DNA from: an uncultured Candidatus Saccharibacteria bacterium
Lineage (GTDB): Bacteria > Patescibacteriota > Saccharimonadia > Saccharimonadales > UBA4665
NCBI GenBank assembly: GCA_963730375.1
Contig: CAVSRJ010000004.1
Span: 29,112 to 93,111 of the forward strand
Direction: 5' to 3'
DNA: 64,000 bases
The notes under the pieces are model-generated. The model saw only the letters and a list, made by a program, of their open reading frames with translations. It searched no databases and was not told where the DNA came from. This document shows positions 31,724-45,865 of this stretch, one piece after another (within the stretch, counting starts at the first letter, position 1; each line of letters opens with the position of its first letter). Both the position numbers and the translations under genes were made by a program.

Positions 31724-31734
31724 GGTTGCTGCTC

Positions 31735-32297: not shown

Positions 32298-32348
32298 TTT
32301 TCGGTCACTCACTATTCGTAGGTTATATGCGCACTGAGTGACCGAAAA
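32298..32348 (-). promoter_or_regulatory. leader hairpin A (14-bp perfect arms)
   Basis: TTTTCGGTCACTCA-N23-TGAGTGACCGAAAA lies in the 5' region of the 31735-32247 transcription unit. It is homologous to 33221-33262. Confidence 0.5.
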
Positions 32349-32351
32349 TAT

Positions 32352-32366
32352 ATTCCTAGCTTGTCA
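32352..32366. repeat. right arm of perfect 15-bp inverted repeat (ATTCCTAGCTTGTCA)
   Basis: Reverse complement of 29822-29836. It is part of the conserved box CATTGACAAGCT (minus-strand reading), also present at 33278-33289. Confidence 0.7.
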
Positions 32367-32534
32367 ATGAACGTTCTCTGTTGGGAGCATAAGCTCTACC
32401 AACACAAAACATCGATAAATTATAGCAAAATATTGACCAATTGTCAATAATGCTTAAGGTATCGGTTTGTCGGATGCCGAGTGATCTTTAACGGGAGTGT
32501 GAAAACAAGCTGGGGTGAGAACGGAGGCGTGAGC

Positions 32535-32567
32535 GGCATACCGCGCGATGGTCTTGCGCGGTATGCC
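32535..32567 (-). terminator. G+C-rich hairpin downstream of 32578-33189
   Basis: GGCATACCGCGC-gatggtctt-GCGCGGTATGCC forms a perfect 12-bp stem 11 nt after the stop. No U tract. Confidence 0.5.
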
Positions 32568-32577
32568 GTCACCTGCC

Positions 32578-33189
32578 TTAGCCCCATAGGAGCCATGCTA
32601 CTGCCGCTCCGTAGGCCACGGTACCGAGTACTGCTGCGACTAGTCGTCTCCTGGTCTGGTACTCGATGAGCATCGCGTTGAGCAGTGCCAAGACACCGCC
32701 CGTCATTAGTAGCTCCGCGCCGAGTGTCGCTGGCGACGAGAGCAGGCTGTTGACCTGATACGTCGGTGCGCGATACAGCAAGAAGACCGTCACCACGAAG
32801 ATGAAGCACCACTCAAGCGTGATGAGTACCCCCAGTTGCTGACGACGCTTGAGTGTCAGCAGCAGGAACGCCACTGACAGACCTGTGATCGCTGCGGCGA
32901 TGAGCCCGGCAACGAACAGCGTCTGTACGAAGCTGCTGATCAGTTGTCTGTCACTGAACACACGTCCTTGGCGTAGCTGGACGCCTCCGTCGAGTGTCAG
33001 AATCCAGACAGCCGCTCCGGCGATGAACCATGACAGCAGTAGCCATGGCAGTCCCGTCAGGAACGCCCGTAGGACGTTGAGCGGCTTTCGGACATGCCAC
33101 AGCACGGCATACAGCCACGCGCGGATCCACTGTCGTAGGTGCAGGCGGGGTACGAAGACCCGCCTCTTGACGTGTCTTCCTTGTGTCAT
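32578..33189 (-). CDS. G+C-rich polytopic membrane protein (203 aa)
   Basis: Start placed at MTQGRHVKRR behind GAGGAGGG. About five hydrophobic helices. The 243-aa track ORF extends into the leader. Confidence 0.6.
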   Translation of the reverse strand: MTQGRHVKRRVFVPRLHLRQWIRAWLYAVLWHVRKPLNVLRAFLTGLPWLLLSWFIAGAAVWILTLDGGVQLRQGRVFSDRQLISSFVQTLFVAGLIAAAITGLSVAFLLLTLKRRQQLGVLITLEWCFIFVVTVFLLYRAPTYQVNSLLSSPATLGAELLMTGGVLALLNAMLIEYQTRRRLVAAVLGTVAYGAAVAWLLWG

Positions 33190-33220
33190 TCGTACCCTCC
33201 TCGGTGTTTGTGGCGGATTT

Positions 33221-33289
33221 CGACCACACAATGCGTACAAACTTGCGCGCACTGTGTGACCGGAATCCCTCTGCCCCAGCTTGTCAATG
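33221..33289 (-). promoter_or_regulatory. leader B: conserved box plus hairpin homologous to leader A
   Basis: Minus-strand reading: CATTGACAAGCT-N16-CGGTCACACAGTGCGC...TGTGTGGTCGAAA. Both arm differences relative to a perfect palindrome are G.U pairs in the sense RNA. Confidence 0.45.
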
Positions 33290-33411
33290 TGCGCGATGGT
33301 GTATTCCACCTCATCGCTGACCTCTTTATGCCCGAAAAATCCAGCTTAGGCAATAGTATTTCCGACACACACACGTGTCAGTCCAGCCCCAACCTGCTAC
33401 AATATGGGGCA

Positions 33412-34122: not shown

Positions 34123-34163
34123 CTTTTCGTAGATTAACTCAGTTAGATCGTCACAGTTTGCGA

Positions 34164-37100
34164 CTATTTGCCTGGACCGATGCCATACCAGTTCCAGTGC
34201 CATGGTTCCTGGGCTGCATTTGGATTGCCGGGATCGTGCTCGTAGGAGTGGAACCAGCCATACTTGTATGCGTTTTTTACGAGCCACTCATACTTGGATG
34301 AGCCGTAGGATATGTTGTCGAGGTCTACGGCTAGGCCCCAGCCATGATTTGATGTACCCGGTATCGCAACCTGTGCAGATGATGACCCAGGATTACTGGC
34401 CTTTATTTCTTGTTGAATCTGTAAACTTCGATATGCTGCGCCACTTCCGCCCAAAATTGATAGTCTGTCGCCAGTATCTTTGTGGTATTCCTCGTTCATG
34501 GCAATAAATGCTTTTGCAGCGCCGATATACATTGGGTGTCTGTTAGTACCATCTACATCTTTCAGTATTTTGCCACTCAGTCGGCCGTTCAGATAGCCGG
34601 CTTTTTGGAGCCTGCCCTGTTCGGGAGATGAGTAATATTCCTTCAGCTGCGATTTCTCGTGCTTTTTGTGGTCGAGTACATCATTTACCTTCTTTAAGGA
34701 CTCGAAATTTAAGCCGTCCCATAGCTCAGGATAATTTGCTTTAGCCTCAAGCATTTTTCGTCTTACTTCCGCTTCGGCTCGTGCTTTTGCAGCTGCCCGT
34801 CTCTTGGCGTCTGCTATGACATGGTCTTTTTCTTTATCGTACGCTTTACTGAACTGCGTTGCATAGTTGCGACGATCGTGGTCGTTTTGACCACCTGGGC
34901 TGCTATCCGCTGCGCGTTCGTACAGACTCAGTACCAATGTAGCGGCTTCTTCCGGTGAGTTTGCTTGCTTAATTCTATCCCACGCTGCACGTTCGCTACC
35001 CTCGAGCTCATGCATAATGAAATCAAATTGTACGTCAGCATCCTTCCAGGATTTACCCTTGTCATGTGCGAACTTGTAAAGGTTGTCTAGGCGGCCGCCC
35101 TCCCATTGAATACATCCTTTGGCTGGACCCAGGTATTGTTCTGTAGAACAGTCCATGAGGGGCTTGCCGGTCTCATCTCGAATATCTGCAATGAATCCGA
35201 ACGCTATATCTCGCTTCATGCCGCGACTGATTAATTTTTCTGCATATGTTGCAGCCTTTGCGATAGATTTGTCGCTGCTTTTTTGCATACGGTCAAGCGC
35301 CCTGGATTCGATTGTACTGGTAGAAAGTTTCTCGCTTTTATATGCGGCGGCTGCTTTGCGTGCTTCTGCTTCTTGGCGGGCCTTTTCGGCTGCTGCTTTT
35401 TGGCGGGCTTTCTCGGCGGCATCCTCCACGGCCATTTGTATGCGGTCTATGTCTTCTTGTGGCGCAACACTCAGCTCGGCTATAGCGAGCTGCATGGCTA
35501 TCCGAGGCAAATCCTTCTTGTCGATGTCTTTGGCGCCACCATTTTGTGGCTCTGACAGTTCCTGTTCGAGCTCTTTTGCGCGCCAGGCGATGATACTCTG
35601 GTTCATGCCGCTGCCTGGTGCCTGAATGGCCTGCTTCTGATCATCACTTAGGTTTTTAAAGTATGAGCTGTCTTTGAGGAGTGCTTGCAACTGCAAAATT
35701 GCGGTGGAAGCTGTCGTATTCTCGACGAGCCCCGAAGTGCGACCGTTAGTGGTATTGTCAACTATCTCGGTCACTTTTGGCTCAAGGTACTCCGATAGCA
35801 ACAGGCTTTTTTCGAATAACGGCTTCGTCGTTTCTGGTGCAGCCTTGTCGGATTCGGAGGCTGCTGTCGGAGCCGGTGTATCAACATTTGCTCCCAGACC
35901 AAGTGTGGCAACTTCTGCCTGAACTCGTTCTTCGGGCGTGACTACACCATCCTTGGCTGCATCAGCGAGTACACTGTGTTCTTTTTGCGGTTCGACTGGT
36001 GCCGGTACTGGTACAGTAGGCTTAACTTCTTGTGGTGCCACCGTAGCCTGAACGGTTTCTTGCACTGGGGTTACTAGCGTGTGGGCTGCTTTTGTCTCGG
36101 TTTGAACTACTTGAATCTTGGGTGCTGCAGCCGCGCTAACTATCGAAGGTGTAGCGGGTACTGTAGGTGCCGTCTGTAGCCGGGTTGCGGCAGCAGCGCG
36201 CTGGGTAACGTTAATAATCAGGCCGGGTCTGCTACCTGGAAGGCTGGAGGGAGACGTAGCGGTAGCCTCCGCTGGGGCGAAGTGTAATGACGTTCCGACG
36301 CTTGCGGAAACATTTGGTGTAGCCGGCGTGGCCGCAGCGGCATGCGGGGCGAAAACCATCCCAGCGCCGACACCAAATACTGATACTGCCGTAGCTCGTC
36401 GGCCTATGCGACCCAAGTTACTACTGTCGTTCGCATGTTCCATGGCGGGTTTGCCGTCACGATCCCATGGTAGTGCGTAATCTTCGTACGCCATACGACC
36501 AAGCGCAATGACGTCTTCCAGCGTCAATTTAGGGTGCTTACCCTCGCTTACTTCCTTGGCAAGTTTGTCGAGATTTTTAGCGAGCTCACGCTGCACAGGA
36601 ATAACCCGAGAGGTTTGACGTGGATCAGGTATGGTACGCAACTTGCGTGAGTCGGGGTGGATCGTCGGGGTTTCTGTGCACAGGTTGGCGTACACGATTG
36701 CAACTCGCTCAGTAACTGCCGGGTTTGCAATAGGGGATTGTTGGCGAGCTACAAGCGTATCAAACCACCTGCTCTGTACTCTTGACATCAAACGGTCACT
36801 GACAGGTAGCATGCGGGCTTGTTGTACCAGTTCACGAGTGATTGGTTGTGTAGAGACATCATGGTGAATTGTGGCGAGTATGCCTTCGGCTAGGGTTTTT
36901 TCTTCCATATCCTTTGCCCAGGCTCGTCCCGCGCCTGGTTTGTTTTTTTCGTGTCTGTCTATTTGTCCAGCAAGCTTTTGGATGTGCGGAGTATATGGTT
37001 CGACTACTTTGTGATATGCACGGATAACGTTTGGATTGATGACAAATTCCTGGTACGCCTCATCTGGCATGGCGAGCTGCTCAAACCCTACGCTGCGCCC

Positions 37101-37205
37101 GAAAAAGTCTGCCGTTTTATCAGAAATATCTCCCACGAGCCGTTCTGCTACATCCGGGACGAATGCGTATCGCTCTGGACCTCCATATACCGTTCGTGTT
37201 GACAT
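34164..37205 (-). CDS. membrane-anchored bifunctional peptidoglycan hydrolase (phage-tail-lysozyme-like muramidase + VanY/M15B-type peptidase)
   Basis: 1013 aa. The architecture is a ~285-aa cytoplasmic N-domain, a TM helix (ATAVSVFGVGAGMVFAPHAAAA), and a P/T/A/V-rich plus charged-helical spacer. This is followed by GCIQWEGGRLDNLYKFAHDKGKSWKDADVQFDFIMHELEGS...LYERA (phage tail lysozyme pattern). The C-terminus has PGTSNHGWGLAVDL ... EPWHWNWYG (M15B zinc D,D-peptidase pattern). Confidence 0.8.
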   Translation of the reverse strand: MSTRTVYGGPERYAFVPDVAERLVGDISDKTADFFGRSVGFEQLAMPDEAYQEFVINPNVIRAYHKVVEPYTPHIQKLAGQIDRHEKNKPGAGRAWAKDMEEKTLAEGILATIHHDVSTQPITRELVQQARMLPVSDRLMSRVQSRWFDTLVARQQSPIANPAVTERVAIVYANLCTETPTIHPDSRKLRTIPDPRQTSRVIPVQRELAKNLDKLAKEVSEGKHPKLTLEDVIALGRMAYEDYALPWDRDGKPAMEHANDSSNLGRIGRRATAVSVFGVGAGMVFAPHAAAATPATPNVSASVGTSLHFAPAEATATSPSSLPGSRPGLIINVTQRAAAATRLQTAPTVPATPSIVSAAAAPKIQVVQTETKAAHTLVTPVQETVQATVAPQEVKPTVPVPAPVEPQKEHSVLADAAKDGVVTPEERVQAEVATLGLGANVDTPAPTAASESDKAAPETTKPLFEKSLLLSEYLEPKVTEIVDNTTNGRTSGLVENTTASTAILQLQALLKDSSYFKNLSDDQKQAIQAPGSGMNQSIIAWRAKELEQELSEPQNGGAKDIDKKDLPRIAMQLAIAELSVAPQEDIDRIQMAVEDAAEKARQKAAAEKARQEAEARKAAAAYKSEKLSTSTIESRALDRMQKSSDKSIAKAATYAEKLISRGMKRDIAFGFIADIRDETGKPLMDCSTEQYLGPAKGCIQWEGGRLDNLYKFAHDKGKSWKDADVQFDFIMHELEGSERAAWDRIKQANSPEEAATLVLSLYERAADSSPGGQNDHDRRNYATQFSKAYDKEKDHVIADAKRRAAAKARAEAEVRRKMLEAKANYPELWDGLNFESLKKVNDVLDHKKHEKSQLKEYYSSPEQGRLQKAGYLNGRLSGKILKDVDGTNRHPMYIGAAKAFIAMNEEYHKDTGDRLSILGGSGAAYRSLQIQQEIKASNPGSSSAQVAIPGTSNHGWGLAVDLDNISYGSSKYEWLVKNAYKYGWFHSYEHDPGNPNAAQEPWHWNWYGIGPGK

Positions 37206-39361
37206 TACTGCACCCCTCCTTGTAGTTGATTAATTATCTTTGGCTTCGCTGGTAATATTCTGCCTAGCAGTCTTCGCAGAGCCGACTGCGGGGTTGATCC
37301 TAGTGGTACTGGCTGACGAAACTCTGCGGGCGTAGTCGGCTGCGCAGGTGCCTCAATCTCTTTAGTCCAATCCTGCAAGAAGGCAGTCCATAGGTGGTGG
37401 TTATTGAGCCATCGTTCGGCGAGTCGGCGCTTGAGGTCGGCGTCTACCTTTGCTGAATCGGTTTCGGCTCGGGTATGGGTGCTGTACTCGTCAAAAAACT
37501 GACGAGCTTCGTGTATTTCAAGTGATACATCAGCCAACTCGTCTCGTAATTCGTCGCGAATCGCCAGGCTGAGAACCATGGTTTTGCCCAGTTGGGCAAG
37601 CGTAGTCTTTGTCGTTTGTTCATCGTCTTCGAGCAGCGCCATGTCATGGGAGCGAGCCCGAAATCCGAGTGCGTGTAAGTCTTTACTGTCGAGCTGCTGG
37701 GGGATTGGGTCAAAATATGAACTGTCGCCCAATATACGGCCGACGTCGTCCCAGCTCTGTTCGTCGGCGGGCGGCGTTTTGGCTAGTTCGATGGCTTGAC
37801 GTTGTCGTTGCTCGGCGAGTGCAACCTTTGCTTGTGACGACATATTGGCAATGGCGGCTCGTAGCACCTGTAATCGCTCGTCTACGTCGGCTCGCTGATT
37901 GCGAATGTCCTCGTGCGTGTCGCCGACGAGTGCGGCCTGCTGATTGAGCTCAATAAATTCTGGTACCAACCTAGCCATCTGCCGCTCAAATATTCTGCCG
38001 ATGCTTTCCAAGCGCGCAACTTCCTGACACACTGTGTCGTACTCGGATACGGCGCTTGCGAGATTTTGCTTGGCTATCTCAGCCCCGTCTCGGAATTCAT
38101 CTCGTTCAATAGTTCGACCTTCTCTCAAAGCTTCGTATTGAGCGGTGTAGTCGTCCTCAAGACCAGAGTATTCAAACGGATACTTGCCATAAGTTTGCAT
38201 CTTGTGCTGTCGAGTCTCTCTGATTGCTGCTATGGACGATGTGAATGCCTGCATCAATTCTGGGTCTTGTTCGCTGAGGCCAGGTATGTAGGTGTAGACA
38301 GGTCCTTTAACGGAGTACATACGGTCTTCTCTTTCAGCTATCTTTTCTTTTGACAGAATATTGACCGAATCAAGCTCGGCAAATTGCAATGCGGCAAGGG
38401 CTTTTGTGTGTTCCTGTACTTCCCTGACCGCCTGTTCGGGCGCTTCGTCCTGTTGTCGGAGGGATACTAGATCGGAATGCACAAAGCTGGCGGTGCGCCG
38501 AAGGGTTGTAACCATTTCTAAATATCGCGGTACAAGCTGATCCTTGAACAGATCCAGCCGCAACTCACGATCGTTTTGGAAGCCTCGGTGCATCGCAATC
38601 ACCCTATCCTTCTCGGCAATTTTGGCTGCGAGCTGTGCTGCTCGCTGTGAAAGTTCACCATGTGTTGCGGTGAGCCGTTCATAGCTGGCGTGTAATGCGG
38701 CAAGCTGAAGCTCGGCCTCAGTTTCTGGTTCAGATGGAGCTTGCTCGGGATATTGTGAATGAGTCTGATTTTCCTCAGTACCGTCATCAGCTGCTTCATC
38801 CATGTCTGTACTAGGAAACTCAGCGCCACGTGGCGTCGGACCGCGCTCTTCATCGATGCTGCGTTGCAGCGAAAAGATCTGTCGTTGGCATGCGTTTGCT
38901 TTTGCCTCGACGCTGGCTCGGTCTATCTCAACTGGCTCGAGTCGTGCTTGCAGCTCGTTGCGTATATCGACCATAAGTTCAATATCATCAGCTACTCTGC
39001 CATAGTCTCGACGTACCTCGATTGCGGCCGCAACATTTCGATCAAAATGTATCAATAACGAGTGAGTCACTTCATCGAGCCCTCTGGCAAGGTTGTAGCG
39101 AGGTCCAAAACTCGCGACAACCTGGTCGTGGCGATTTTTTAGCTTGTTGAGCTCCAGGTTGTAGCGATCTAGCAGGTTGTCGGCGAACGCAGTAGCAGCT
39201 TTGAGCGTGTGCTCTGATGCATCCCGGAGGGTAGCCGGGTCTACCTCACTGATTGCACCCGACTCTGGCTGAACCCCAGTCTCGTATGGAGCAGTCGGTA
39301 GCGCTTTTGATGGTTCGGGGGCTAGTACGTCTACAGCGAGTTCCCGGTTGAGGAGTGTCAT
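37205..39361 (-). CDS. cytoplasmic coiled-coil-rich orphan protein (718 aa)
   Basis: No hydrophobic helix. It has long runs of charged heptad-like sequence (E/R/Q/L/A rich). The stop overlaps the next start as TAATG, and its own start overlaps the upstream stop as ATGA. Confidence 0.7.
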   Translation of the reverse strand: MTLLNRELAVDVLAPEPSKALPTAPYETGVQPESGAISEVDPATLRDASEHTLKAATAFADNLLDRYNLELNKLKNRHDQVVASFGPRYNLARGLDEVTHSLLIHFDRNVAAAIEVRRDYGRVADDIELMVDIRNELQARLEPVEIDRASVEAKANACQRQIFSLQRSIDEERGPTPRGAEFPSTDMDEAADDGTEENQTHSQYPEQAPSEPETEAELQLAALHASYERLTATHGELSQRAAQLAAKIAEKDRVIAMHRGFQNDRELRLDLFKDQLVPRYLEMVTTLRRTASFVHSDLVSLRQQDEAPEQAVREVQEHTKALAALQFAELDSVNILSKEKIAEREDRMYSVKGPVYTYIPGLSEQDPELMQAFTSSIAAIRETRQHKMQTYGKYPFEYSGLEDDYTAQYEALREGRTIERDEFRDGAEIAKQNLASAVSEYDTVCQEVARLESIGRIFERQMARLVPEFIELNQQAALVGDTHEDIRNQRADVDERLQVLRAAIANMSSQAKVALAEQRQRQAIELAKTPPADEQSWDDVGRILGDSSYFDPIPQQLDSKDLHALGFRARSHDMALLEDDEQTTKTTLAQLGKTMVLSLAIRDELRDELADVSLEIHEARQFFDEYSTHTRAETDSAKVDADLKRRLAERWLNNHHLWTAFLQDWTKEIEAPAQPTTPAEFRQPVPLGSTPQSALRRLLGRILPAKPKIINQLQGGVQ

Positions 39362-40896
39362 GACTTGCCTCCGGAATTGTCCTGATTTGCGATAGAAAAT
39401 TGTACGTCCGGGTTAATAAACGCAAAATCTTGGTTGCCAACATTGTCCTCGGTGACTCTGATGACACTCGCGAAGTATTCTCCCGGCATTGTAGGTGAGT
39501 TGTAGTGGTCGATAACTACGTTCGTACCGTCGGCGGCATTGACAGCTGCCTTTAGTTTTGCATCGACCGATGCGCACATGGCTTTTTGTATGGCAGCACT
39601 ATCCACTGGATCATTAGAGATGTATTGCAGGGTAGCTAGCTTGAGTAAATCGAGTGCAGTCTGGTTGCGACCTTTGCCGGCCGAGAAAGATTTGTTGTCC
39701 TTGCTGTACTTCCCATCTGGCGCAAAACGTTGCAGGATTCGCCTCGATTCATACTCGTTGAATAGCCACTGCTTGTCACTGTCCTTCGTTCCCGCGGGAT
39801 AGGTGGGTGGTTGTGGGCGAGCTATTTCGTAATCTTTTGTTAGTTGGGGGTTTTGTAGTGCGGGTATCTTAAGCTTGGAATCATCAACCACTAAGTGGTA
39901 CGGGCTTTTCTGTATGACAGCTTCTGACATTGTGGCACCGTCATTGAGGCAAACTCCAAAATCCATTTCCTGACCAGGTCCGCCGATTTGGGCAAGTGGA
40001 ATCCGGTTTTCGTATGGTGCGGTTTTTGGATCGATTTTTTCGCCATTTTCAGCCGCAGTAAATGCGTCGGTAGTCGGCAGCGGCCAGGCATAGACGGTCT
40101 CAGCATCATCGGTGAAAATTCCTCGAGTCTGGAGATCCTTGGGTATTCTGTATTTCGGATCTTTGTACGCTTGCTGTCTTGCCTTGGCTACAGCCGCCTG
40201 ATCGGCGCCGTCGATGACGGTGACTCGCGTTAGCATCTGCATCCTACTGATAATGTTGGCAGAAAATGCCGGATCCAGGCAATCAAGTGACGGCCAGGTA
40301 TAATGCTCGTCGGCCACTGGCTCGGCGCTGGTATCTGTAGTGCTCTTGCTACTGCTAATATCTGGCATAACATCTGCAGCCGCACCACCGCGGAATGTAA
40401 ATGTAGCTGCGGTCGCCACCAGCGCCAAAGAGCCAGCAGTGCGCCACTTGTGACGCCTGGTTAACGCGAACATTTTGCGGGCGGATTCGCCGGGTAGCAT
40501 GCTACCGACGCGTTGCATCAACAGACGAGTAGTACCGGGGCCTGTGTCGGCTTGCATATCTTGGTGGGGCTGTGACTGATACCCATGACGAGTCGGCGGC
40601 TGTTGGCTAAACGCAGGGGGGGATGTAGTGCGTACACTCGATGTGTCGTCGTGGCTCGGCTCCGATTGCCCAGCCGAATCTCGGGTCTTGTTATTGACCC
40701 AAGGTGGAACTGGAATATCTTCATCATTTCCCCACAGTGGTGCATTTGCCCAGTTGTCAGCTGGCGCTGAGCGTTGGCGTGGTGTCTCCCTTGTCGGCTC
40801 GACCGGTGGTGTACTACCGTGTACTTCAGTGTAGGCTCTTAAAAAGTCTTCCTCGCTGAAGCCCTGATGTGGCCGCTCGTGTTCGCGTTCGCCCAT
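39358..40896 (-). CDS. single-pass membrane orphan protein (512 aa)
   Basis: A ~145-aa disordered cytoplasmic N-region, a TM helix (WRTAGSLALVATAATFTF), and a ~340-aa extracytoplasmic domain. No family recognised. Confidence 0.7.
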   Translation of the reverse strand: MGEREHERPHQGFSEEDFLRAYTEVHGSTPPVEPTRETPRQRSAPADNWANAPLWGNDEDIPVPPWVNNKTRDSAGQSEPSHDDTSSVRTTSPPAFSQQPPTRHGYQSQPHQDMQADTGPGTTRLLMQRVGSMLPGESARKMFALTRRHKWRTAGSLALVATAATFTFRGGAAADVMPDISSSKSTTDTSAEPVADEHYTWPSLDCLDPAFSANIISRMQMLTRVTVIDGADQAAVAKARQQAYKDPKYRIPKDLQTRGIFTDDAETVYAWPLPTTDAFTAAENGEKIDPKTAPYENRIPLAQIGGPGQEMDFGVCLNDGATMSEAVIQKSPYHLVVDDSKLKIPALQNPQLTKDYEIARPQPPTYPAGTKDSDKQWLFNEYESRRILQRFAPDGKYSKDNKSFSAGKGRNQTALDLLKLATLQYISNDPVDSAAIQKAMCASVDAKLKAAVNAADGTNVVIDHYNSPTMPGEYFASVIRVTEDNVGNQDFAFINPDVQFSIANQDNSGGKS

Positions 40897-40899
40897 GGT

Positions 40900-41787
40900 T
40901 TACTTCTCCACCACCGATCCTAGAACGGGAATGTTACTGATAATTCCATCAACATGCCAGGTGGCGGCGAGGTCTGCGGCTGGCTGCTTGCTTCCGGTGA
41001 TGTCGGCAAAGTCCTGCATCGTCTTTTTGTATGCTGGCGTCAGTGCGACGCCGAGTATTGCGAGACTGGCGGCGGATTTACCGGCAAAGCGAACTAACCG
41101 TCGCTCGTGCCATTGCTTTCTCTGTCGATTGCCATCATGACCCTTGCCAGTATCCTCTCCTGCGTCAGCTGCTGCGCGAGCTTGTCCACGTTCAAACCCG
41201 GCCAGGGGACCCAGGGGAGATGGCTCTTGTGCTGGAGCTGCGGCCGGTGCTGGTTGGGTCGGCGCCTGTGCCCATTCAGGTTCGGGAGTCGGTTCGTCGC
41301 GCTCGGCTGGTGCTTGGTGGCGCACGTCGGGTTCAGGTCTACGCTCGATGACTCTATACTCTGGTATAAAAGGCAACTCTTGCATTTCCCGCGCCGCGAC
41401 TCTAGCTGCTGCACGGTCCACTAGAGGGTATGAACCTAGCACAATCTCTGGCGTTGTCCCGGTTATCTCAGCACGCCATCGAGTACCGTTTGAGCCATGG
41501 AGGTCTATTGTGGCAGATTCTAATTCTCTTCGTGGCGCGACCACGACTGCCTCAGTCTGGCCAGCCTGACTGTTGAATATATAACCCCTCTCCTCATCCC
41601 AACGGAAATTTTGCCTAATCCATGCTCTTGTTTGGGGGTTTGCGCCCCGAAGTTCCCTATCCCTTAGAATCTGTTCGGGGGTTAGGCCTTCTGATTCTTC
41701 TTGGAACGTCCCCCCATTGTCAATTGGCGGATCAAATGAATAGTTTGGATCTATATCCCATGGGTTTCTGAAGTCTCCTGATTCCAT
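40900..41787 (-). CDS. tail-anchored membrane orphan protein (295 aa)
   Basis: A ~240-aa cytoplasmic part with a Pro/Ala/Glu-rich linker and a C-terminal TM helix (SAASLAILGVALTPAY). Its stop is separated from the next ATG by 3 nt. Confidence 0.7.
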   Translation of the reverse strand: MESGDFRNPWDIDPNYSFDPPIDNGGTFQEESEGLTPEQILRDRELRGANPQTRAWIRQNFRWDEERGYIFNSQAGQTEAVVVAPRRELESATIDLHGSNGTRWRAEITGTTPEIVLGSYPLVDRAAARVAAREMQELPFIPEYRVIERRPEPDVRHQAPAERDEPTPEPEWAQAPTQPAPAAAPAQEPSPLGPLAGFERGQARAAADAGEDTGKGHDGNRQRKQWHERRLVRFAGKSAASLAILGVALTPAYKKTMQDFADITGSKQPAADLAATWHVDGIISNIPVLGSVVEK

Positions 41788-42965
41788 TATGATGCTCCTT
41801 CTGGAATTGGGTCGAAGACATACGTGCCATCGGTTGCCTTGTGTATGCTGGCGTAATTTTCTGGGACATAGTTTTCATCGACCGTGATGTTGACTTTTGT
41901 ATTCTTGGTATCGAGCTTGATACCGATACCCTCCTTGGCGAGGGCGTCGCCGCCGTAGTTCTTAAACATGTTGGTCTTGTCGAAGTCAGGGGCGCCACCT
42001 TCGACTTTGACGTGCACTGACTTCAGTGCTTCTACGCCGCCCTTTTTCAGGGCTTCGCCAGCGATGTAGTCGAGGAATTGTGGAAGTGTCTGCTTTTCCC
42101 AGGCGGCTTTGCTTCCCTCTTTGGCTGTTGCTTCGAGCACGGCGTTTTCGGCGATGACTTGCCCCATGGTCTCTGCCTTGGTCGTCATATCCGGGGTGAA
42201 CTTCTTGGCAATGTCGTCACATGGGACGCCAGCAAGCTTAAATGGCAAACACGCGATTCTAAACGCGGCAGAGGAGCCCTGGATACCTCCGTCGAGAGCT
42301 GCGGTAAGTGTTCCATCGAAACGGTTGGGGTTTTGTTGTGGCATGGTAGCAATGGTGCTCATGTTGGCTGTGTTTAGCGTCACGACAGATTCGCCAAACT
42401 TGGCATTCGGGTCAGTGGGGGCTTCGTGCTGGACACTGACTGGATCGCCCTTGCTGTCATCATTACAGGTCACTACAGCGACAACGGTTTTGCCGGCATT
42501 TGGATCCTTCTTCTTCGTGGCGTCATCCGGCTTGTTATAAAAGGAGAAGTCCGAATATAACCCGTCGGGCGAGAAGGTTTTTGACCCGACTTTGATTTCT
42601 GTTTTTACTCGTACTTTCGTGTCCTCTGATACGTGCCACATGTTGAGCGATGCACAGGTCAGCTCGAGTTTTTGGCCGAGGGCAAATTCTGCATTGATCT
42701 CTGAATTGCTGCCATCGACCGATTGTTCGGTGCCAATGTTTTGAAGGGCATAAGCTATGCCGCTTGCGTGTGCAAATGGTCCCGCGCCTATATAAGCGAC
42801 GCCACCTAGTGCAGCGGCAGCGAGTGTGCCAGCCACCCACCTATCGGCACGGCCGCGCTCATCGCGCTGCAAGGCCTCGTAACGTGCTGGTTCTACCGTT
42901 TCATTTTGAGCGATGTCTGTTTGAGGTGCCAGGCTGTTTGCCTGAGCTGTTTCGGCTGCTGCCAT
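41787..42965 (-). CDS. single-pass membrane orphan protein (392 aa), first gene of operon
   Basis: GGAGGA lies 8 nt upstream of the ATG. TM helix is WVAGTLAAAALGGVAYIGAGPF, followed by a ~320-aa extracytoplasmic domain with four Cys. TAATG overlap with the next gene. Confidence 0.7.
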   Translation of the reverse strand: MAAAETAQANSLAPQTDIAQNETVEPARYEALQRDERGRADRWVAGTLAAAALGGVAYIGAGPFAHASGIAYALQNIGTEQSVDGSNSEINAEFALGQKLELTCASLNMWHVSEDTKVRVKTEIKVGSKTFSPDGLYSDFSFYNKPDDATKKKDPNAGKTVVAVVTCNDDSKGDPVSVQHEAPTDPNAKFGESVVTLNTANMSTIATMPQQNPNRFDGTLTAALDGGIQGSSAAFRIACLPFKLAGVPCDDIAKKFTPDMTTKAETMGQVIAENAVLEATAKEGSKAAWEKQTLPQFLDYIAGEALKKGGVEALKSVHVKVEGGAPDFDKTNMFKNYGGDALAKEGIGIKLDTKNTKVNITVDENYVPENYASIHKATDGTYVFDPIPEGAS

Positions 42966-43070
42966 AATTCAATCCTCCGATTGTCATTTTCTGTTTCGTT
43001 CACCTGGAACGTAACCCTCATACGACAAATGCACACGTGGACACACGTCGACACATGATGCTCATGTCGT

Positions 43071-43162
43071 CTATGCAACCGCGTGTTGTGGAGTCACAGC
43101 ACTGTAGTTGCATAACCAGCGGGGCACAAGACCTACCCAATTGTGCGCACAGGTTATGCAAC
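43071..43162. promoter_or_regulatory. three copies of GTTGCATA in the upstream region of the 5-gene operon
   Basis: The copies are tatgcaacc (43071-43079), GTTGCATAACC (43107-43117) and GGTTATGCAAC (43152-43162). The latter two form an 11-bp perfect inverted repeat enclosing GCACAA...TTGTGC. GACCGTA-TAG-TACGGTC follows at 43171-43187. Confidence 0.35.
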
Positions 43163-43368
43163 TCTCTCGAGACCGTATAGTACGGTCGAGAAACTTAGCG
43201 CTCACTATGGCATATGGAATATGAAGTGTCAACGAATAGTTAACGATTTGACAAAATTACAACAAATATCATGAATTTCTAGGCTCCACACTTCGCTACA
43301 TTGAAGTGTGTGATGCCGGCGACGGGTGGTGGTGGGAAGTTCCCCCAGAACCCGTCGCCGGCCGCTCA

Positions 43369-44067
43369 TCACACCCCCGCGCGGGCGCTGCTCTGCTCCT
43401 CCTGCGGCGCCCATGGGTTGGTCTCGTCATCGCCGGGTGTCTGCTGGCTCGACCAGTTCGGACGCGTCGTGCTGACCCTGGGCTCGGGACCGCTCAGGAC
43501 CGTCTCCTCATGTGCACGACGGGGTACGGGGTCGAAGCGGTGGTCCGTGTCGGGAACCTCGTACGAGTCGGTGACGGACGGGTCGGTGATCTTGCCATCG
43601 ACGTACTCCTTCTTGGGTCGCCTGTTGTAGAGGCTCTTGCCCATGTTGAGGCGGTGAAGCCCGAAGACGATCAGGCCGACGAGGATCCAGGCCAGTACCC
43701 GCGCTCCGATGAGGAGGTACGAGTCGAGCAGACGCTGCTGGAACGCGTACCAGACGACGGGCATGGTGGCGGCGATGGCGACGACCAGGAGGTAGCCACC
43801 GATGGCGATCTTGCCGGTCTTGTTGCGGTCCCGGTCGAGCGACCAGTGCAACGCCTTCCAGCAGGCGTAGCCCAGGACGATCAGCATGGTGACCGTCAGG
43901 ACGGCGCTGGTCTGCTCACCGTGGTTGCTGACGAGCTCCGGCAGCAGCACGACGGTGAAGGTGGATCCCAGGATGCCCAGGGCGAAGCCCAGCCCGACAG
44001 CGACCTGACGGAAGGTGAGCTTCTTCCCGTGCGGGAGGAACTGGATGTTGGGTCGTGACGGTCGCAT
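43369..44067 (-). CDS. G+C-rich membrane protein (232 aa) with disordered C-terminal tail
   Basis: Start placed at MRPSRPNIQF behind GAAAGGA. Four hydrophobic helices. The antisense 250-aa ORF 43306-44058 is a shadow. Confidence 0.6.
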   Translation of the reverse strand: MRPSRPNIQFLPHGKKLTFRQVAVGLGFALGILGSTFTVVLLPELVSNHGEQTSAVLTVTMLIVLGYACWKALHWSLDRDRNKTGKIAIGGYLLVVAIAATMPVVWYAFQQRLLDSYLLIGARVLAWILVGLIVFGLHRLNMGKSLYNRRPKKEYVDGKITDPSVTDSYEVPDTDHRFDPVPRRAHEETVLSGPEPRVSTTRPNWSSQQTPGDDETNPWAPQEEQSSARAGV

Positions 44068-44351
44068 GGTGAGTCCTTTCGCTGCGACGTGGTGGTGCTG
44101 TTGATGAGCGATCATGCCCAGCGGGCCGATCAACTCAAACACCGGATGGTGGAGAATCGTGCCGGCGGCACAATGCATGTTGTTATAGCACAGCAGACCA
44201 GTGGGATAAAGGCGAACTGTCCTTGCCCGAAGTTGGCAACAATTTGATAAAACAACCATGCAAAATGTTGCTAATTATGCAAATAAGTTTAGAATAGGCT
44301 GCATTCCGTCCATGAGCAAAAAAGCTCTCGATCGAACGAGGTGGTTAATAG

Positions 44352-44885
44352 ATGACTGCAGCGACTTGGTCGTATCCGATGAACATCATCGGTCGCCCGG
44401 GCTTCTTCGGAACACTGCGTGCGTTGTGGGGGTCGTTCTCCTCCAAGCGCCGTGACGCAGCCAAGGTGGGAATTGGCTTCGTGGCCAGTCTCCTGCTCTG
44501 GCTCGATGACAGCACGGTCGTGCTGATCGCGGACAACTTCGCGATCTCAGGGCTGACCGTGGTGATCATCATCGGATTCACGCGGATCTTCCACCAGGCG
44601 ATGGTCAACCGCTACATGCACGCCCCCGAGGCGCGCAAGGTCGGCTGGCTGAAGTGCGCCTGGAGGTTCGTGACGAATCCTCGGGAACTGCTGTTCGGCA
44701 AGCTGTGGCAGCTGTTCGTAGCTGGCAGCCTGACCGTGTCAGCAGCGACCGACGCCATCCTGGTGGCTGACGATGCGGTGCTGAACTTCGTCGACAACGG
44801 CGCCGAGATCCCGGCAACCATGTCAGTACTGCTGTTCGGCTCTCTGCTGTTCGGCAAGCTGTCGAAGTACCGGTGGGAGGTGTAG
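44352..44885 (+). CDS. G+C-rich membrane protein (177 aa)
   Basis: ORF with about four hydrophobic helices, divergent from 43369-44067. An alternative start MNIIGRP lies at 44379. Confidence 0.55.
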   Translation: MTAATWSYPMNIIGRPGFFGTLRALWGSFSSKRRDAAKVGIGFVASLLLWLDDSTVVLIADNFAISGLTVVIIIGFTRIFHQAMVNRYMHAPEARKVGWLKCAWRFVTNPRELLFGKLWQLFVAGSLTVSAATDAILVADDAVLNFVDNGAEIPATMSVLLFGSLLFGKLSKYRWEV

Positions 44886-44908
44886 CCCATGCAAGACGGA
44901 CAGGCCCG

Positions 44909-44952
44909 AGGGGGTCCCGAGTAGTGCGCTGCGGCGTACGCAACGGGACCCC
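44909..44952. terminator. G+C-rich hairpin between convergent genes
   Basis: GGGGGTCCCG ... CGGGACCCCC forms a 10-bp stem 24 nt after the stop of 44352-44885. Confidence 0.5.
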
Positions 44953-45082
44953 CGAAGGGCCGGCCGCGAGGTAGCTAGATGATGTGAGGTATGCGTGTCG
45001 CATACATATAACTCTTCCCATCTACAAACATTACCCGCGGCTTTTTTCGTGCCAAAAATAATAATCGAAAGTGGTAGGTCGG

Positions 45083-45140
45083 GCTGCTCTGGCTGGGGTT
45101 CTCTCGATCGCGAGATCGGAGTCGCCCCAGCCAGAGCAGC
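45083..45140. terminator. 16-bp perfect G+C-rich hairpin between convergent genes
   Basis: GCTGCTCTGGCTGGGG ... CCCCAGCCAGAGCAGC with an inner CGATC-GCGA-GATCG stem-loop. It lies 31 nt beyond the stop of 45171-45635. Confidence 0.55.
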
Positions 45141-45170
45141 GAATGTACATTTTGGGTTGCCGTCGAGGGC

Positions 45171-45635
45171 TCAGCTGAAGATGCTGTTCACGTTCTCCAC
45201 GACCGACACGCCGAGCGAGCTACCTGCCAGCAGGGCTGCCATCAGGAAGATCACCACGAGGGCGATCTTGTCCGCGAACGACCGCTTCTTGTTGGGCGTG
45301 TCCGACTTGCGCTTACGCCCACGCAGGTAGAAGAAGCTGGCTCCGGCCATGATGACGACCACGATGGCCCAGTACACGCCGTTGCCGGCGATGTTCTGCT
45401 CGGCCGCGGCGCCGGTCAGCTTGTTCGGCACCCAGGATGCGATGTCCCGCACCAGTGCGGACCACGAGACCAGGATGCCCGCCAGGATGGCGGCGACGTA
45501 GTCGAGAAGGACCCGGTTGTGGTCGGAGAACATGTAGAAGAACAGCATGATCACCAGCAGGATGACAGCCGTCGAGGTCCGAAGCGGGCCCGTCTGGACG
45601 TCAACCGACAGCATGGAAGAAATGTACGTGTGCAT
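45171..45635 (-). CDS. G+C-rich membrane protein (154 aa)
   Basis: ORF with four hydrophobic helices and a basic loop (RGRKRKSDTPNKKR). Confidence 0.6.
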   Translation of the reverse strand: MHTYISSMLSVDVQTGPLRTSTAVILLVIMLFFYMFSDHNRVLLDYVAAILAGILVSWSALVRDIASWVPNKLTGAAAEQNIAGNGVYWAIVVVIMAGASFFYLRGRKRKSDTPNKKRSFADKIALVVIFLMAALLAGSSLGVSVVENVNSIFS

Positions 45636-45865
45636 GAGATCACCCCTCTCAATAGGTTACAGGGATCTAGCACTAGGCAATATAACCATAGAATGTATAC
45701 AAAATCAATTTAGTTATATGACCTGCTTATGAATACATTTGTAGTACAATTTTCCAATGCCGAAAACCAATTTTCGTATCTGTAAGGACGTGATATCAGG
45801 CAAATGAGATAGAATATACCGAGGTTATGGCAGTCTGTTGGAAAAGCACGCTCAGACCGTTCGTA

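What the first reader, a model, noticed from the sequence alone, without database searches (positions are those of the whole stretch)
34164..42965. Five-gene translationally coupled operon: orphan single-pass membrane proteins, a coiled-coil protein and a two-headed peptidoglycan hydrolase
Five consecutive minus-strand genes encode 392, 295, 512, 718 and 1013 aa. Their junctions are TAATG (41787), stop-ACC-ATG (40896-40902), ATGA (39358-39361) and TAATG (37205). A strong SD (GGAGGA) precedes only the first gene, so this is one 8.8-kb coupled unit. Four products share one architecture: a long N-terminal cytoplasmic region, a single hydrophobic helix, and an extracytoplasmic part. The 718-aa product has no TM segment and is charged-helix/coiled-coil rich. 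The only catalytic signatures are at the C-terminus of the last protein. They are a phage-tail-lysozyme-like muramidase and a VanY/M15B zinc peptidase (SNHGWGLAVDL, EPWHW). Both are held more than 300 residues from the membrane by a P/T/A/V-rich and helical spacer. There is no ATPase, pilin, secretin, VirB4/VirD4 or FtsK-like gene. I read this as an envelope-spanning scaffold that presents a glycan-cutting plus peptide-cutting enzyme at a distance. It could remodel the cell's own wall. If the organism is an epibiont, it could breach a host wall. None of the four non-enzymatic proteins resembles a family I can name.
Basis: partly seen in the sequence, partly recalled or inferred. Interest (0 to 1): 0.78.

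Follow-up and report, generated by a model that had tools for sequence, protein, structure and literature searches.

The report
Fast-evolving five-gene cell-wall-cutting operon in Saccharibacteria
A Saccharibacteria (TM7, epibiont) chromosome carries a real, recurrent five-gene operon that ends in a membrane-anchored enzyme with two cell-wall-cutting heads; its four partner proteins match no known family, and the operon diverges far faster than its neighbours, which suggests a role in contact with other cells.

Summary
The five minus-strand genes, their lengths and their overlapping junctions are real. The last protein carries a Phage_lysozyme2 muramidase domain and a VanY/M15B zinc-peptidase domain with intact motifs. 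One claim is wrong: every gene has its own Shine-Dalgarno, not only the first. The membrane anchors are only weakly hydrophobic.

The organism is a Candidatus Saccharimonadales bacterium. In about 70 related species pyrH is followed by a Clp-like gene or the ABC/Nramp backbone with no cassette. Here an 11.7-kb insert holds the operon.

The operon is not unique. The same five-part layout recurs in at least ten other contigs. All lie among housekeeping genes. None lies beside an ATPase, T4SS, phage or integrase gene.

Two close relatives differ sharply. Their flanking proteins are 57-90% identical, but their cassette proteins are only 22-37% identical.

A conserved promoter and a ~120-nt hairpin leader, with no Rfam match, precede the first gene in four loci.

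The four partners have no hit in Pfam, NCBIfam, PHROGs, PADLOC or PDB. AlphaFold models were unusable.

Best reading: an accessory, fast-diversifying membrane complex that deploys a bifunctional wall hydrolase, probably at the host contact site. Function is inferred, not shown.

The parts
43204..43232 (-). Promoter-like site: TTGACA, 17 nt, CATAGT with TG before the second hexamer
   Evidence: This is the best minus-strand site in the scan. The TTGAC -35 hexamer is invariant in the aligned upstream regions of L081, L082 and L084. A -10-like hexamer is also read from those alignments, at 17 nt in L081/L082 and 16 nt in L084.
43052..43172 (-). Conserved leader of about 120 nt. It has a long hairpin (AGTTGCATAACC...GGTTATGCAACT) and a TGCATAGACGACAT box. 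It lies between the promoter and gene 1.
   Evidence: It aligns with L081 3710-3826, L082 4386-4502 and L084 4049-4166. RNAalifold predicts 23 pairs, 5 of them with compensatory changes. Covariance model R1 finds only these four sites in 1.58 Mb. There is no Rfam match. Which strand is functional is unresolved.
41787..42965 (-). c1, 392 aa. It has a 42-residue N-terminus, a weak Ala/Gly-rich anchor (residues 43-64, nt 42774-42839) ending in AHA-S, and an outer domain of about 330 residues.
   Evidence: Homologous to L081 368 aa (3e-28) and L082 353 aa. No family hit.
40900..41787 (-). c2, 295 aa. It has a Pro-rich N-terminal region of about 230 residues, an anchor at residues 234-252 (nt 41032-41088) and a tail of about 43 residues.
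   Evidence: It has only positional and architectural counterparts in other cassettes, with no detectable sequence similarity.
39358..40896 (-). c3, 512 aa. It has a disordered-looking P/S/Q-rich N-terminus of about 150 residues, a weak anchor at residues 153-174 (nt 40375-40440), and an outer domain of about 335 residues with two invariant Cys (C206, C316).
   Evidence: Homologous to L081 493 aa (2e-41) and L082 445 aa. No family or PDB hit.
37205..39361 (-). c4, 718 aa. It is soluble, rich in A/E/L/R/D, and has no hydrophobic segment. It is presumed cytoplasmic and helical.
   Evidence: Only weak colinear similarity to L082 712 aa (blastp 1e-4, hhalign probability 50). No Walker A motif was seen on reading the sequence. 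No family hit.
34164..37205 (-). c5, 1013 aa, a bitopic two-headed peptidoglycan hydrolase
   Evidence: Full-length relatives are P0007 (1e-106) and P0008 (1e-84), plus about 25 further 50%-identity clusters with the same layout.
36396..37205 (-). c5 residues 1-270: N-terminal domain of unknown fold. Basic residues before the anchor suggest it is cytoplasmic. L133 and P134 are invariant in the five closest relatives aligned (A2).
   Evidence: No Pfam hit in any of 14 family members. No PDB relative.
36330..36395 (-). c5 residues 271-292: weakly hydrophobic anchor (ATAVSVFGVGAGMVFAPHAAAA) ending in an AxA-like motif
   Evidence: The same kind of segment is followed by PAAA, SAAA or ANA in relatives.
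35256..36329 (-). c5 residues 293-650: a P/T/A/V-rich linker followed by a helical, partly Ala/Lys/Glu-rich spacer
   Evidence: composition; conserved LSDxQKxAIL stretch.
34842..35255 (-). c5 residues 651-788: Phage_lysozyme2 muramidase domain. E678 is invariant in the 14 family members aligned.
   Evidence: The closest solved relative is the N-terminal lysozyme domain of phi29 gp13.
34182..34520 (-). c5 residues 896-1008: VanY/M15B zinc peptidase domain. It has H954 and D961 in SNHGWGLAVD, and E1000/H1003 in EPWHW.
34123..45865 (.). An 11.7-kb stretch between pyrH and the Clp-like gene that is missing from related species. It holds the operon with its leader, and three high-GC3 orphan membrane ORFs at 43369-45635.
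   Evidence: synteny of 80 Saccharimonadales loci; composition.

Best explanation
This is an accessory, fast-diversifying five-protein membrane module of Saccharibacteria. Its working part is c5, a membrane-tethered enzyme that cuts both the glycan strands (muramidase) and the peptide stems (M15B zinc peptidase) of peptidoglycan.

Shown:
- The five genes form one packed operon behind one conserved promoter and leader.
- Both catalytic domains have intact signature residues.
- The five-part layout recurs in at least ten other contigs. It is: bitopic protein with an outer domain; bitopic protein that is mostly cytoplasmic; bitopic protein with a Cys-pair outer domain; soluble helical protein; bitopic hydrolase.
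- The cassette is absent at this locus from the closest species.
- It diverges far faster than its neighbours.

Inferred:
- c4 is a cytoplasmic scaffold. It gathers the cytoplasmic N-terminal regions of c2, c3 and c5.
- The outer domains of c1 and c3 bind or gate the hydrolase heads.
- The 350-residue linker lets the heads reach through or beyond the cell's own wall.
- The weak Ala/Gly-rich, AxA-ended anchors may allow release or cleavage of the outer parts.

Most likely use: local opening of the host (Actinobacteria-type) wall at the epibiont-host contact. The rapid diversification would then reflect adaptation to different host walls or host defences.
For: - Operon and domains.
- Organism is Saccharimonadales.
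- Recurrence of the five-gene layout, with housekeeping neighbours and no ATPase, T4SS or phage genes:
  - L081 368/320/493/833/1007
  - L082 353/288/445/712/976
  - L083 .../826/1017
  - L084 387/204/439/865/1007
  - L086 396/303/432/505/1012
  - L087 377/239/454/514/1014
  - the P0015 contig .../268/320/327/1352
  - L112 334/78/403/301/836
  - L115 414/206/738/362/1192
  - L088, which shows only the tail end
- Same anchor pattern in every cassette checked.
- Accessory status. None of the five proteins has a tblastn hit in 80 related pyrH loci. About 70 of those loci have enough downstream sequence to show that no cassette follows pyrH.
- Hypervariability. Between L081 and L082, xth is 90.5% identical, pyrH 76%, and other flanking genes 57-80%. 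c1 to c5 are 22-37% identical. The c5 proteins of L086 and L087 match at 1e-81, but their c1 to c4 are undetectable to each other.
- The hydrolase heads are modular, as in lytic 'from without' enzymes. They carry lysozyme2 or SLT; VanY or CHAP/C39; and sometimes M23 as well.
- The closest solved relative of the glycosidase head is the phi29 tail lysin gp13.
- Cell-wall hydrolases of the same two domain types are essential in the epibiont S. epibionticum (PMC10633639 Table S2; PMC12102498).
Against: - There is no experimental or structural evidence.
- The c1 and c3 models were unusable (pLDDT 38-40), so no complex is shown.
- A membrane tether also fits an enzyme that acts on the cell's own wall.
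- No cell-wall-binding or adhesin domain was found.
- Absence from close species was tested only at the pyrH locus, not genome-wide.
- The cassette is not in the one Saccharibacterium with Tn-seq data, as far as its tables show.
- Fast divergence could partly reflect low constraint on coiled-coil and disordered proteins.
Confidence: 0.4

Rival explanations
1. Own-wall remodelling machine. The complex is an autolysin system that opens or trims the Saccharibacterium's own peptidoglycan. Possible purposes are division or budding of swarmer cells, or passing pili and other envelope-spanning structures. The cytoplasmic c4 scaffold would localise and control the hydrolase from inside, as FtsEX-PcsB/RipC/CwlO systems do.
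For: - The hydrolase is membrane-tethered, and three of the proteins carry cytoplasmic N-terminal regions.
- The context is chromosomal and housekeeping.
- VanY/LdcB-type enzymes are classically own-wall trimming carboxypeptidases.
- No secretion ATPase is present.
Against: - It is absent at the locus in about 70 closer species.
- Roughly 25-30 of the 150 best-scoring 50%-identity clusters, out of 4,351 hits among 1.84 billion representatives, show the same layout.
- Close relatives differ by 63-78% in the cassette proteins while their flanks are 57-90% identical. Core division machinery would not be expected to do this.
- No FtsE/FtsX, or any ATPase that could drive regulation, is in any cassette.
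Confidence: 0.27
2. Contact-dependent antibacterial weapon or kin-discrimination locus. c5 is a polymorphic wall-degrading effector. One or more of the fast-evolving partners acts as cognate immunity or a delivery adaptor. The locus is kept diverse by competition between Saccharibacteria or with other surface colonisers.
For: - Divergence is extreme at a fixed locus between conserved flanks.
- The lytic heads are swapped in a modular way.
- Distribution is that of an accessory element.
Against: - No known delivery system is nearby: no T6SS, T7SS, CDI, LXG or Rhs markers.
- No small immunity-like gene follows c5.
- The effector is tethered by an N-terminal cytoplasmic domain. This is unlike known secreted polymorphic toxins.
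Confidence: 0.12
3. A split-off or degenerate part of the Patescibacterial type IV secretion system. c5 would be the VirB1-like wall hydrolase. c1 and c3 would be diverged VirB8/TcpC-like channel parts that serve a T4SS encoded elsewhere in the genome.
For: - In S. epibionticum, a Phage_lysozyme2-containing protein (SEML1_0006) and a 1113-aa protein with a C-terminal M15B-like domain (SEML1_0007) sit directly after VirB4 and are essential (PMC12102498).
- Monoderm T4SS hydrolases are bitopic and two-headed.
- An SLT+M15 hydrolase lies about 6.5 kb from VirB4-like and coupling-protein genes on an actinobacterial plasmid.
Against: - No VirB4, VirD4, VirB6, PrgI or pilin gene is in the operon, in the 64-kb window, or within about 10 kb in ten related contexts.
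- c1 and c3 have no hit on 72,556 plasmids.
- None of the operon proteins is polytopic, whereas VirB6 and VirB3 are.
Confidence: 0.1
4. Remnant of a prophage, tailocin or lysis cassette. c5 would be a tail-tip or tape-measure lysin, or a signal-anchor-release type endolysin, with phage-derived partners.
For: - The lysozyme domain matches phage tail lysins and tape-measure proteins at domain level.
- The weak Ala/Gly-rich anchors resemble signal-anchor-release segments.
Against: - No capsid, portal, terminase, tail or integrase genes appear in any neighbourhood.
- IMG/VR viral contigs hold no relative.
- Phage hits cover only 11-14% of c5.
- c1 to c4 have no PHROG hit.
- The locus has stable housekeeping flanks.
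Confidence: 0.04

Closest known systems
VirB1-like wall hydrolases of monoderm type IV secretion systems: PrgK (pCF10), TraG (pIP501), CwlT (ICEBs1), and SEML1_0006/0007 of the S. epibionticum T4SS
   Same: They are membrane-anchored and multi-headed, pairing a glycan-cutting domain with a peptide-cutting domain. They sit at the end of an operon of envelope proteins. In Saccharibacteria they use the same two domain types, Phage_lysozyme2 and M15B.
   Different: No VirB4, VirD4, VirB6 or VirB3 genes or pilins accompany this cassette in any of the loci examined. c5 has a cytoplasmic N-terminal domain of about 270 residues that is not described for those enzymes. The cassette is accessory and hypervariable. 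The S. epibionticum T4SS is essential, and T4SSs are described as universal in Saccharibacteria (PMC10633639).
Phage tail-associated lysins, prototype phi29 gp13 (N-terminal lysozyme plus C-terminal M23 peptidase)
   Same: It has the same glycosidase family; gp13 is the closest solved relative. It follows the same logic of pairing a muramidase with a metallopeptidase to pierce a Gram-positive wall from outside. Some family members even add M23.
   Different: c5 is a 1013-aa bitopic membrane protein of a cellular operon. No virion genes are present, and there are no relatives in viral contigs.
VanY / LdcB / YodJ (M15B) carboxypeptidases
   Same: The zinc-binding and catalytic motifs align (SxHxxGxAxD, ExxH). 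The Pfam score is above the gathering cut-off.
   Different: Scores are far below NCBIfam's VanY and LdcB equivalog cut-offs (41 against 400 bits). It is therefore a domain relative, not a resistance VanY or a housekeeping LdcB. It is fused to a muramidase and a long stalk. Whether it acts as a carboxypeptidase or an endopeptidase is unknown.
FtsEX-controlled hydrolases (PcsB, RipC, CwlO, EnvC systems)
   Same: The concept is shared: a wall hydrolase with coiled-coil parts is governed from the cytoplasmic side through membrane partners.
   Different: There is no ABC ATPase or permease in the cassette and no sequence relation. The resemblance is functional analogy only.
Signal-anchor-release (SAR) endolysins
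   Same: They have a weakly hydrophobic anchor rich in Ala, Gly, Ser and Thr in front of a lytic domain.
   Different: Here the anchor lies 270 residues into the protein, behind a cytoplasmic domain. No holin or pinholin is present. Release has not been tested.

Membership tests
Phage_lysozyme2 (PF18013) muramidase domain | Profile match above Pfam's gathering score | tested here: met
   83.3 bits against a cut-off of 28.2, residues 651-788. Found in 13 of 14 family members.
Phage_lysozyme2 (PF18013) muramidase domain | Conserved catalytic acidic residue | tested here: inconclusive
   E678 is invariant in 14 relatives. Its equivalence to the phi29 gp13 catalytic Glu was not checked residue by residue.
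VanY / peptidase M15B (LAS zinc peptidases) | Profile match above the gathering score | tested here: met
   54 bits against a cut-off of 25, residues 896-1008.
VanY / peptidase M15B (LAS zinc peptidases) | Zinc ligands H-x6-D and a second His, with Glu in ExxH | tested here: met
   SNHGWGLAVD and EPWHW align with PGTSEHQLGLAVD and EPWHY of solved enzymes. D961 is invariant across all 14 family members aligned. H954 is invariant in the five closest relatives.
VanY resistance or LdcB housekeeping equivalogs (NCBIfam) | Score above the curated equivalog/exception cut-off | tested here: not met
   41 bits against 400 (vanY_BG); 14 bits against 275 (LdcB).
Monoderm / Patescibacterial type IV secretion system | VirB4-family ATPase in the locus | tested here: not met
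   No P-loop ATPase is in the operon. None is among the ORFs of at least 200 aa scanned in the 64-kb window; the only one found is the conserved Clp-like backbone gene. None is in ten related neighbourhoods.
Monoderm / Patescibacterial type IV secretion system | Polytopic VirB6-like and VirB3/PrgI-like membrane proteins; VirB2-like pilin array | tested here: not met
   All cassette proteins have at most one weak hydrophobic segment. There are no PrgI, TrbL or pilin Pfam hits.
Monoderm / Patescibacterial type IV secretion system | VirB8/TcpC-like NTF2-fold bitopic protein | tested here: inconclusive
   c1 and c3 have the right topology. Their AlphaFold models had pLDDT 38-40, and there were no sequence hits to PDB.
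Monoderm / Patescibacterial type IV secretion system | VirB1-like multi-domain wall hydrolase | tested here: met
   c5.
Prophage / tailocin | Virion or lysis genes nearby; relatives in phage genomes | tested here: not met
   c1 to c4 have no PHROG hits. Only domain-level hits were found in 50,697 phage records. Nothing was found in IMG/VR. Neighbours are housekeeping genes.
Integrative or conjugative mobile element | Integrase, transposase or relaxase, and flanking direct repeats | tested here: not met
   No such domains are in the flanking ORFs. Only short chance-level repeats flank the insert. c1 and c3 have no plasmid hit.
FtsEX-hydrolase systems | FtsE/FtsX pair encoded with, or acting on, the hydrolase | tested here: not met
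   None is in any cassette. The MacB-type ABC pair at 49508-51656 belongs to the conserved backbone, which is also present in species that lack the cassette.
Known anti-phage defence systems (PADLOC) | Match to any defence-system profile | tested here: not met
   Zero hits for all five proteins and the three upstream ORFs.
Known cis-regulatory RNA (Rfam 15) | Covariance-model match of the leader | tested here: not met
   No match at the gathering threshold or at E<=5 on the 501-nt region.

The most novel reading that the evidence does not exclude
The cassette is a previously unrecognised, ATPase-less apparatus by which some Saccharibacteria open the wall of their host at the contact site. It would be a swappable host-range locus. 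Divergent cassette alleles would be exchanged by homologous recombination between two conserved arms, the structured leader and pyrH, in these naturally competent bacteria. The leader would be a new regulatory element that switches the apparatus on at host contact.
Probability: 0.15. Interest if true: 0.85.

Novelty: new variant of a known kind. Interest (0 to 1): 0.62.

Why it matters
How ultrasmall epibiotic bacteria breach and feed on their hosts is largely open. Cryo-tomography shows conduits and filaments of unknown composition at the contact site (PMC11880426). The only genetically supported envelope machines are type IV pili and an odd T4SS (PMC10633639).

This finding offers three things:
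- A conserved but accessory operon that presents a two-headed wall-cutting enzyme and evolves like a host-interaction locus. It is a concrete, testable candidate for host-wall breaching or host specificity.
- Four protein families with no annotation.
- A conserved leader element with no Rfam family.

If it turns out instead to be an own-wall autolysin system, it would still be a new way of controlling a hydrolase without an ABC motor.

Tried and rejected
- All three word-indexed protein searches (c4, c5, and the c5 family alignment) returned only the query itself. Low-complexity words probably swamped the 8000-candidate prefilter. The exhaustive HMMER search was what found relatives.
- The look-up of encoding contigs did not find the window's own proteins.
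- The metagenome scan with the c5 alignment gave only short lysozyme-domain proteins and no cassettes.
- The viral-contig scan found nothing.
- AlphaFold was run on c3 (7 sequences) and c1 (8 sequences). Mean pLDDT was 38.1 and 39.8, so I ran no fold search, because matches would be meaningless.
- Profile searches of c1 and c3 against PDB found nothing.
- PADLOC, PHROGs and NCBIfam gave nothing for c1 to c4.
- hhalign of the c5 N-terminal and middle regions against c1 to c4 showed no internal paralogy.
- c4 as a degenerate VirB4 is rejected. It has no P-loop family hit, and no Walker A motif was seen on reading the sequence. It shows no conserved columns across nine positional counterparts.
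- The weak Arm-DNA-bind_3 hit in c2 and the XLF_CC hit in c4 are far below the cut-offs and were ignored.
- A mobile-element origin has no support: no integrase and no meaningful flanking repeats.

Full report
OBSERVATION. The five minus-strand ORFs are at exactly the stated coordinates: 41787-42965 (392 aa), 40900-41787 (295 aa), 39358-40896 (512 aa), 37205-39361 (718 aa) and 34164-37205 (1013 aa). The same five protein sequences, with identical starts, are already on record from NCBI/ENA gene calls on a 190,783-bp contig. The junctions are TAATG, TAA-ACC-ATG, ATGA and TAATG. Pfam finds domains only in the last protein: Phage_lysozyme2 at residues 651-788 (E 2.4e-23) and VanY at 896-1008 (E 1.9e-14). 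The motifs SNHGWGLAVD and EPWHW align with the corresponding motifs of solved VanY-type carboxypeptidases.

Three details in the finding are wrong or overstated:
- Every gene has its own Shine-Dalgarno. Genes 2-5 are preceded by GAAGGAG, GGTGGAG, GGAGG and AAGGAGG, so 'SD only before gene 1' is wrong.
- Gene 1 has only 42 residues before its anchor, and gene 2 has only about 43 after it.
- The anchors are marginal. Their 19-residue Kyte-Doolittle peaks are 1.15-1.53 and they are 47-68% Ala/Gly/Ser/Thr. Most bona fide TM helices of the Nramp, MacB and CvpA-type proteins in the same window peak at about 1.8-3.1. They are preceded by basic residues and often end in AxA-like motifs. They look like signal-peptide cores or weak signal anchors placed behind cytoplasmic regions.

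ORGANISM AND LOCUS. A scan with the adjacent UMP kinase (pyrH) returned 80 loci. Most are titled Candidatus Saccharibacteria or Saccharimonadales MAGs, and the best is 81% identical.

In these relatives the backbone is xth - pyrH - (Clp-like 800-aa gene) - ABC pair - Nramp. In many, the Clp-like gene starts within about 10-30 nt of pyrH. In the window, pyrH ends at 34122 and the Clp-like gene lies at 45866-48292. The 11.7 kb between them, which holds the operon plus three small membrane ORFs, is extra. None of the five proteins has a tblastn hit in any of the 80 loci. About 70 of those loci have enough downstream sequence to show that no cassette is there.

No integrase was found, and no meaningful flanking repeats. 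The cassette genes have GC3 of 0.48-0.57, against 0.54-0.66 for core genes. The orphan membrane ORFs on both sides (43369-45635 and 29936-33309) have GC3 of 0.68-0.92. The pyrH neighbourhood therefore holds several compositionally distinct inserts.

THE OPERON IS A RECURRENT CASSETTE. The word-indexed protein searches returned only the queries themselves. An exhaustive HMMER search of 1.84 billion cluster representatives with the 1013-aa protein gave 4,351 hits. These include full-length relatives: P0007, 1007 aa, E 1e-106, aligned over residues 95-1003; P0008, 976 aa, 1e-84; and others. Reading the sequences shows one shared plan:
- an N-terminal domain of 190-450 residues;
- a weak Ala/Val/Thr-rich anchor that ends in PAAA, SAAA or ANA;
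- a Pro/Thr/Ser-rich linker;
- a helical spacer;
- the lytic heads.

The heads are modular. The glycosidase is lysozyme2 in 13 of 14 members or SLT in one. The peptidase is VanY in 12 of 14, or CHAP/C39-like. Some members add M23, and in some VanY precedes the lysozyme. Roughly 25-30 of the 150 best-scoring clusters show this plan.

Looking up the contigs that encode these relatives showed the same five-gene arrangement each time:
- L081: 368/320/493/833/1007, then pyrH and xth.
- L082: 353/288/445/712/976, then pyrH.
- L083: .../826/1017, then pyrH.
- L084: 387/204/439/865/1007.
- L086: 396/303/432/505/1012.
- L087: 377/239/454/514/1014.
- The P0015 contig: .../268/320/327/1352.
- L112: 334/78/403/301/836.
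- L115: 414/206/738/362/1192.
- L088: only the tail end is present.

The neighbours are housekeeping genes: pyrH, xth, uvrC, secG, serS, ddl and NUDIX. No neighbourhood holds an ATPase, VirB/VirD gene, pilin array, phage gene or integrase.

The anchor pattern is the same everywhere it was checked:
- c1 has an anchor near the N-terminus and an outer domain of about 300 residues.
- c2 has a long N-terminal region, then an anchor, then a short tail.
- c3 has an N-terminal region, an anchor and an outer domain.
- c4 has no hydrophobic segment and is rich in A/E/L/R.
- c5 has its anchor at about residue 200-300.

c1 and c3 of the window are clearly homologous to those of L081 and L082 (E 1e-24 to 1e-43; hhalign probability 98.6-99.8). 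All six aligned c3 proteins share two invariant cysteines. c4 shows only a weak colinear match to L082 (probability 50). c2 shows none.

HYPERVARIABILITY. L081 and L082 are close relatives. Their xth is 90.5% identical, pyrH 76%, and five further flanking proteins 57-80%. Their DNA aligns at 72-81% across the flanks. Yet their cassette proteins are only 22-37% identical. Within the cassette, DNA similarity is detectable only in the lysozyme domain. L086 and L087 share c5 at E 1e-81, but their c1 to c4 are not detectably similar. Within c5, the lysozyme domain is the best conserved (48-50% between the window and L081/L082). The N-terminal domain is the least conserved (21-25%). The cassette is thus an accessory locus whose alleles are very old, exchanged between genomes, or under strong diversifying pressure.

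A CONSERVED LEADER. The one non-coding stretch that L081 and L082 share at 84% identity lies just upstream of c1. It also aligns with the window's 400-nt upstream region and with L084. It has three parts:
- a TTGAC -35 hexamer that is invariant in the four loci, with a -10-like hexamer 16-17 nt downstream (window 43232-43204; this is the best minus-strand site);
- a variable first hairpin;
- a long conserved hairpin (window: AGTTGCATAACC...GGTTATGCAACT) followed by the box TGCATRGACGACAT (window 43172-43052).

RNAalifold gives 23 pairs, 5 of them with compensatory changes. A covariance model built from the four copies finds no further copy in 1.58 Mb of fetched loci. Rfam has no match. The window's 238-nt 5' region folds with a z-score of -2.8.

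One point is unresolved. In three loci, two stem positions are C.A/A.C on the operon's sense strand but G.U/U.G on the other strand. The antisense fold is more stable in all four loci. The element could therefore be a 5'-UTR structure, an antisense RNA or a DNA operator. With four sequences this cannot be settled.

WHAT THE PARTNERS ARE NOT. c1 to c4 have no hit in Pfam, NCBIfam, PHROGs or PADLOC. Profile searches against PDB found nothing. c1 and c3 have no hit on 72,556 plasmids. AlphaFold with the shallow alignments available gave mean pLDDT of 38 and 40, so no fold comparison was attempted. c4 has no P-loop family hit, no Walker A motif was seen on reading its sequence, and it has no conserved column across nine positional counterparts.

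COMPARISON WITH KNOWN SYSTEMS.
- Monoderm T4SS hydrolases. The enzyme is of a well-known kind: a bitopic, multi-headed wall hydrolase like the VirB1-type enzymes of monoderm T4SSs. Its glycosidase head is closest to the phi29 tail lysin gp13. In the cultivated Saccharibacterium S. epibionticum, a Phage_lysozyme2-containing protein and a 1113-aa protein with an M15B-like C-terminus lie directly downstream of VirB4 and are essential. On an actinobacterial plasmid, an SLT+M15 hydrolase lies about 6.5 kb from VirB4-like and coupling-protein genes.
- T4SS membership. The defining T4SS parts (VirB4, VirB6, VirB3, pilins) are absent from the operon, from the window and from all ten related contexts. 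Membership in the T4SS family is therefore not supported. A distant functional link remains possible.
- Phage origin. This is not supported.
- FtsEX-type control. This is only an analogy, because no ABC pair belongs to the cassette.

MECHANISM (INFERRED). c5 is inserted N-in, C-out. Its linker and spacer of about 350 residues carry the muramidase and peptidase heads through or beyond the cell's own wall. c4, inside the cell, probably binds the cytoplasmic regions of c2, c3 and c5 and so places or gates the complex. The c1 and c3 outer domains probably bind wall material or control the heads. The weak, AxA-ended anchors may allow cleavage or release.

I favour action on the host wall at the contact site (confidence 0.4), for four reasons:
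- The lineage is epibiotic.
- The cassette is accessory.
- The cassette is hypervariable.
- The heads are of the 'from-without' lytic type and are shuffled among relatives.

The rival readings are own-wall remodelling (0.27), an antibacterial or kin-discrimination locus (0.12), a T4SS accessory (0.10) and a phage remnant (0.04).

LITERATURE. Full-text searches for Saccharibacteria with peptidoglycan hydrolase, lysozyme or M15 terms found no description of this cassette. The papers I read discuss only T4SS-linked hydrolases or generic secreted hydrolases.

VERDICT. The feature is real and recurrent. The enzyme is a new member of a known kind. The five-gene module, its four unannotated protein families, its hypervariability and its conserved leader appear undescribed. 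Function remains inference. The limits are these:
- Absence in close species was tested only at the pyrH locus.
- The taxonomy of several cassette-bearing contigs was not established beyond L081/L082, whose xth is about 80% identical to that of named Saccharimonadales MAGs.
- No structures were obtained.

Noticed in passing
window 43369-45635 and 29936-33309: Six orphan ORFs, at least four with predicted membrane segments (296, 177, 154, 243, 178 and 595 aa), flank the operon and pyrH. Their GC3 is 0.68-0.92 against 0.54-0.66 for core genes. They have no counterpart in 80 related loci or in other cassette loci. They look like separate foreign inserts, possibly from high-GC organisms.
   Followed up: partly
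window 45866-48292 (minus strand): The 808-aa ClpB/ClpC-like double AAA+ protein has a strongly hydrophobic N-terminal segment (KD 2.69 at residues 46-64) and a second weaker one. This suggests a membrane-anchored Clp-type unfoldase. It is conserved next to pyrH in 33 related Saccharimonadales loci.
   Followed up: no
L081 13041-13745, L082 12996-13700, L083 5556-6257: In the three other genomes where the cassette abuts pyrH, pyrH is only 52-56% identical to any of the 80 Saccharimonadales pyrH genes. The neighbouring xth is about 80% identical. This gene next to the cassette is therefore itself an unusual allele.
   Followed up: partly
window 5558-11534: A type I restriction-modification locus appears broken up. 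It has a 286-aa HsdR fragment (SWI2_SNF2/ResIII), a 206-aa HsdS and a 349-aa HsdM. GC dips locally to 0.44 at 8-10 kb.
   Followed up: no
window 29909-31714 (plus strand): A 601-aa ORF lies antisense to the 595-aa membrane-protein gene, with a further 283-aa ORF in another frame of the same strand as that gene. They are probably artefacts of the 63% GC of this stretch rather than genes.
   Followed up: no
window 53820-55061 and 57596-58744: There is a CvpA (Colicin_V) - trypsin-like protease fusion, and a WxL-interacting peptidoglycan-binding domain protein with a C-terminal LysM. Both are further wall-associated proteins in the conserved backbone.
   Followed up: no
L086 1103-3864: One cassette-bearing contig encodes a heliorhodopsin, a response regulator and a cytochrome b-like protein just upstream of the cassette.
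   Followed up: no
L088 3926-7359 and L112 6106-8280: In another lineage the cassette ends next to uvrC, a Phage_holin_4_2 family protein and secG. This points to a second recurrent chromosomal position.
   Followed up: no
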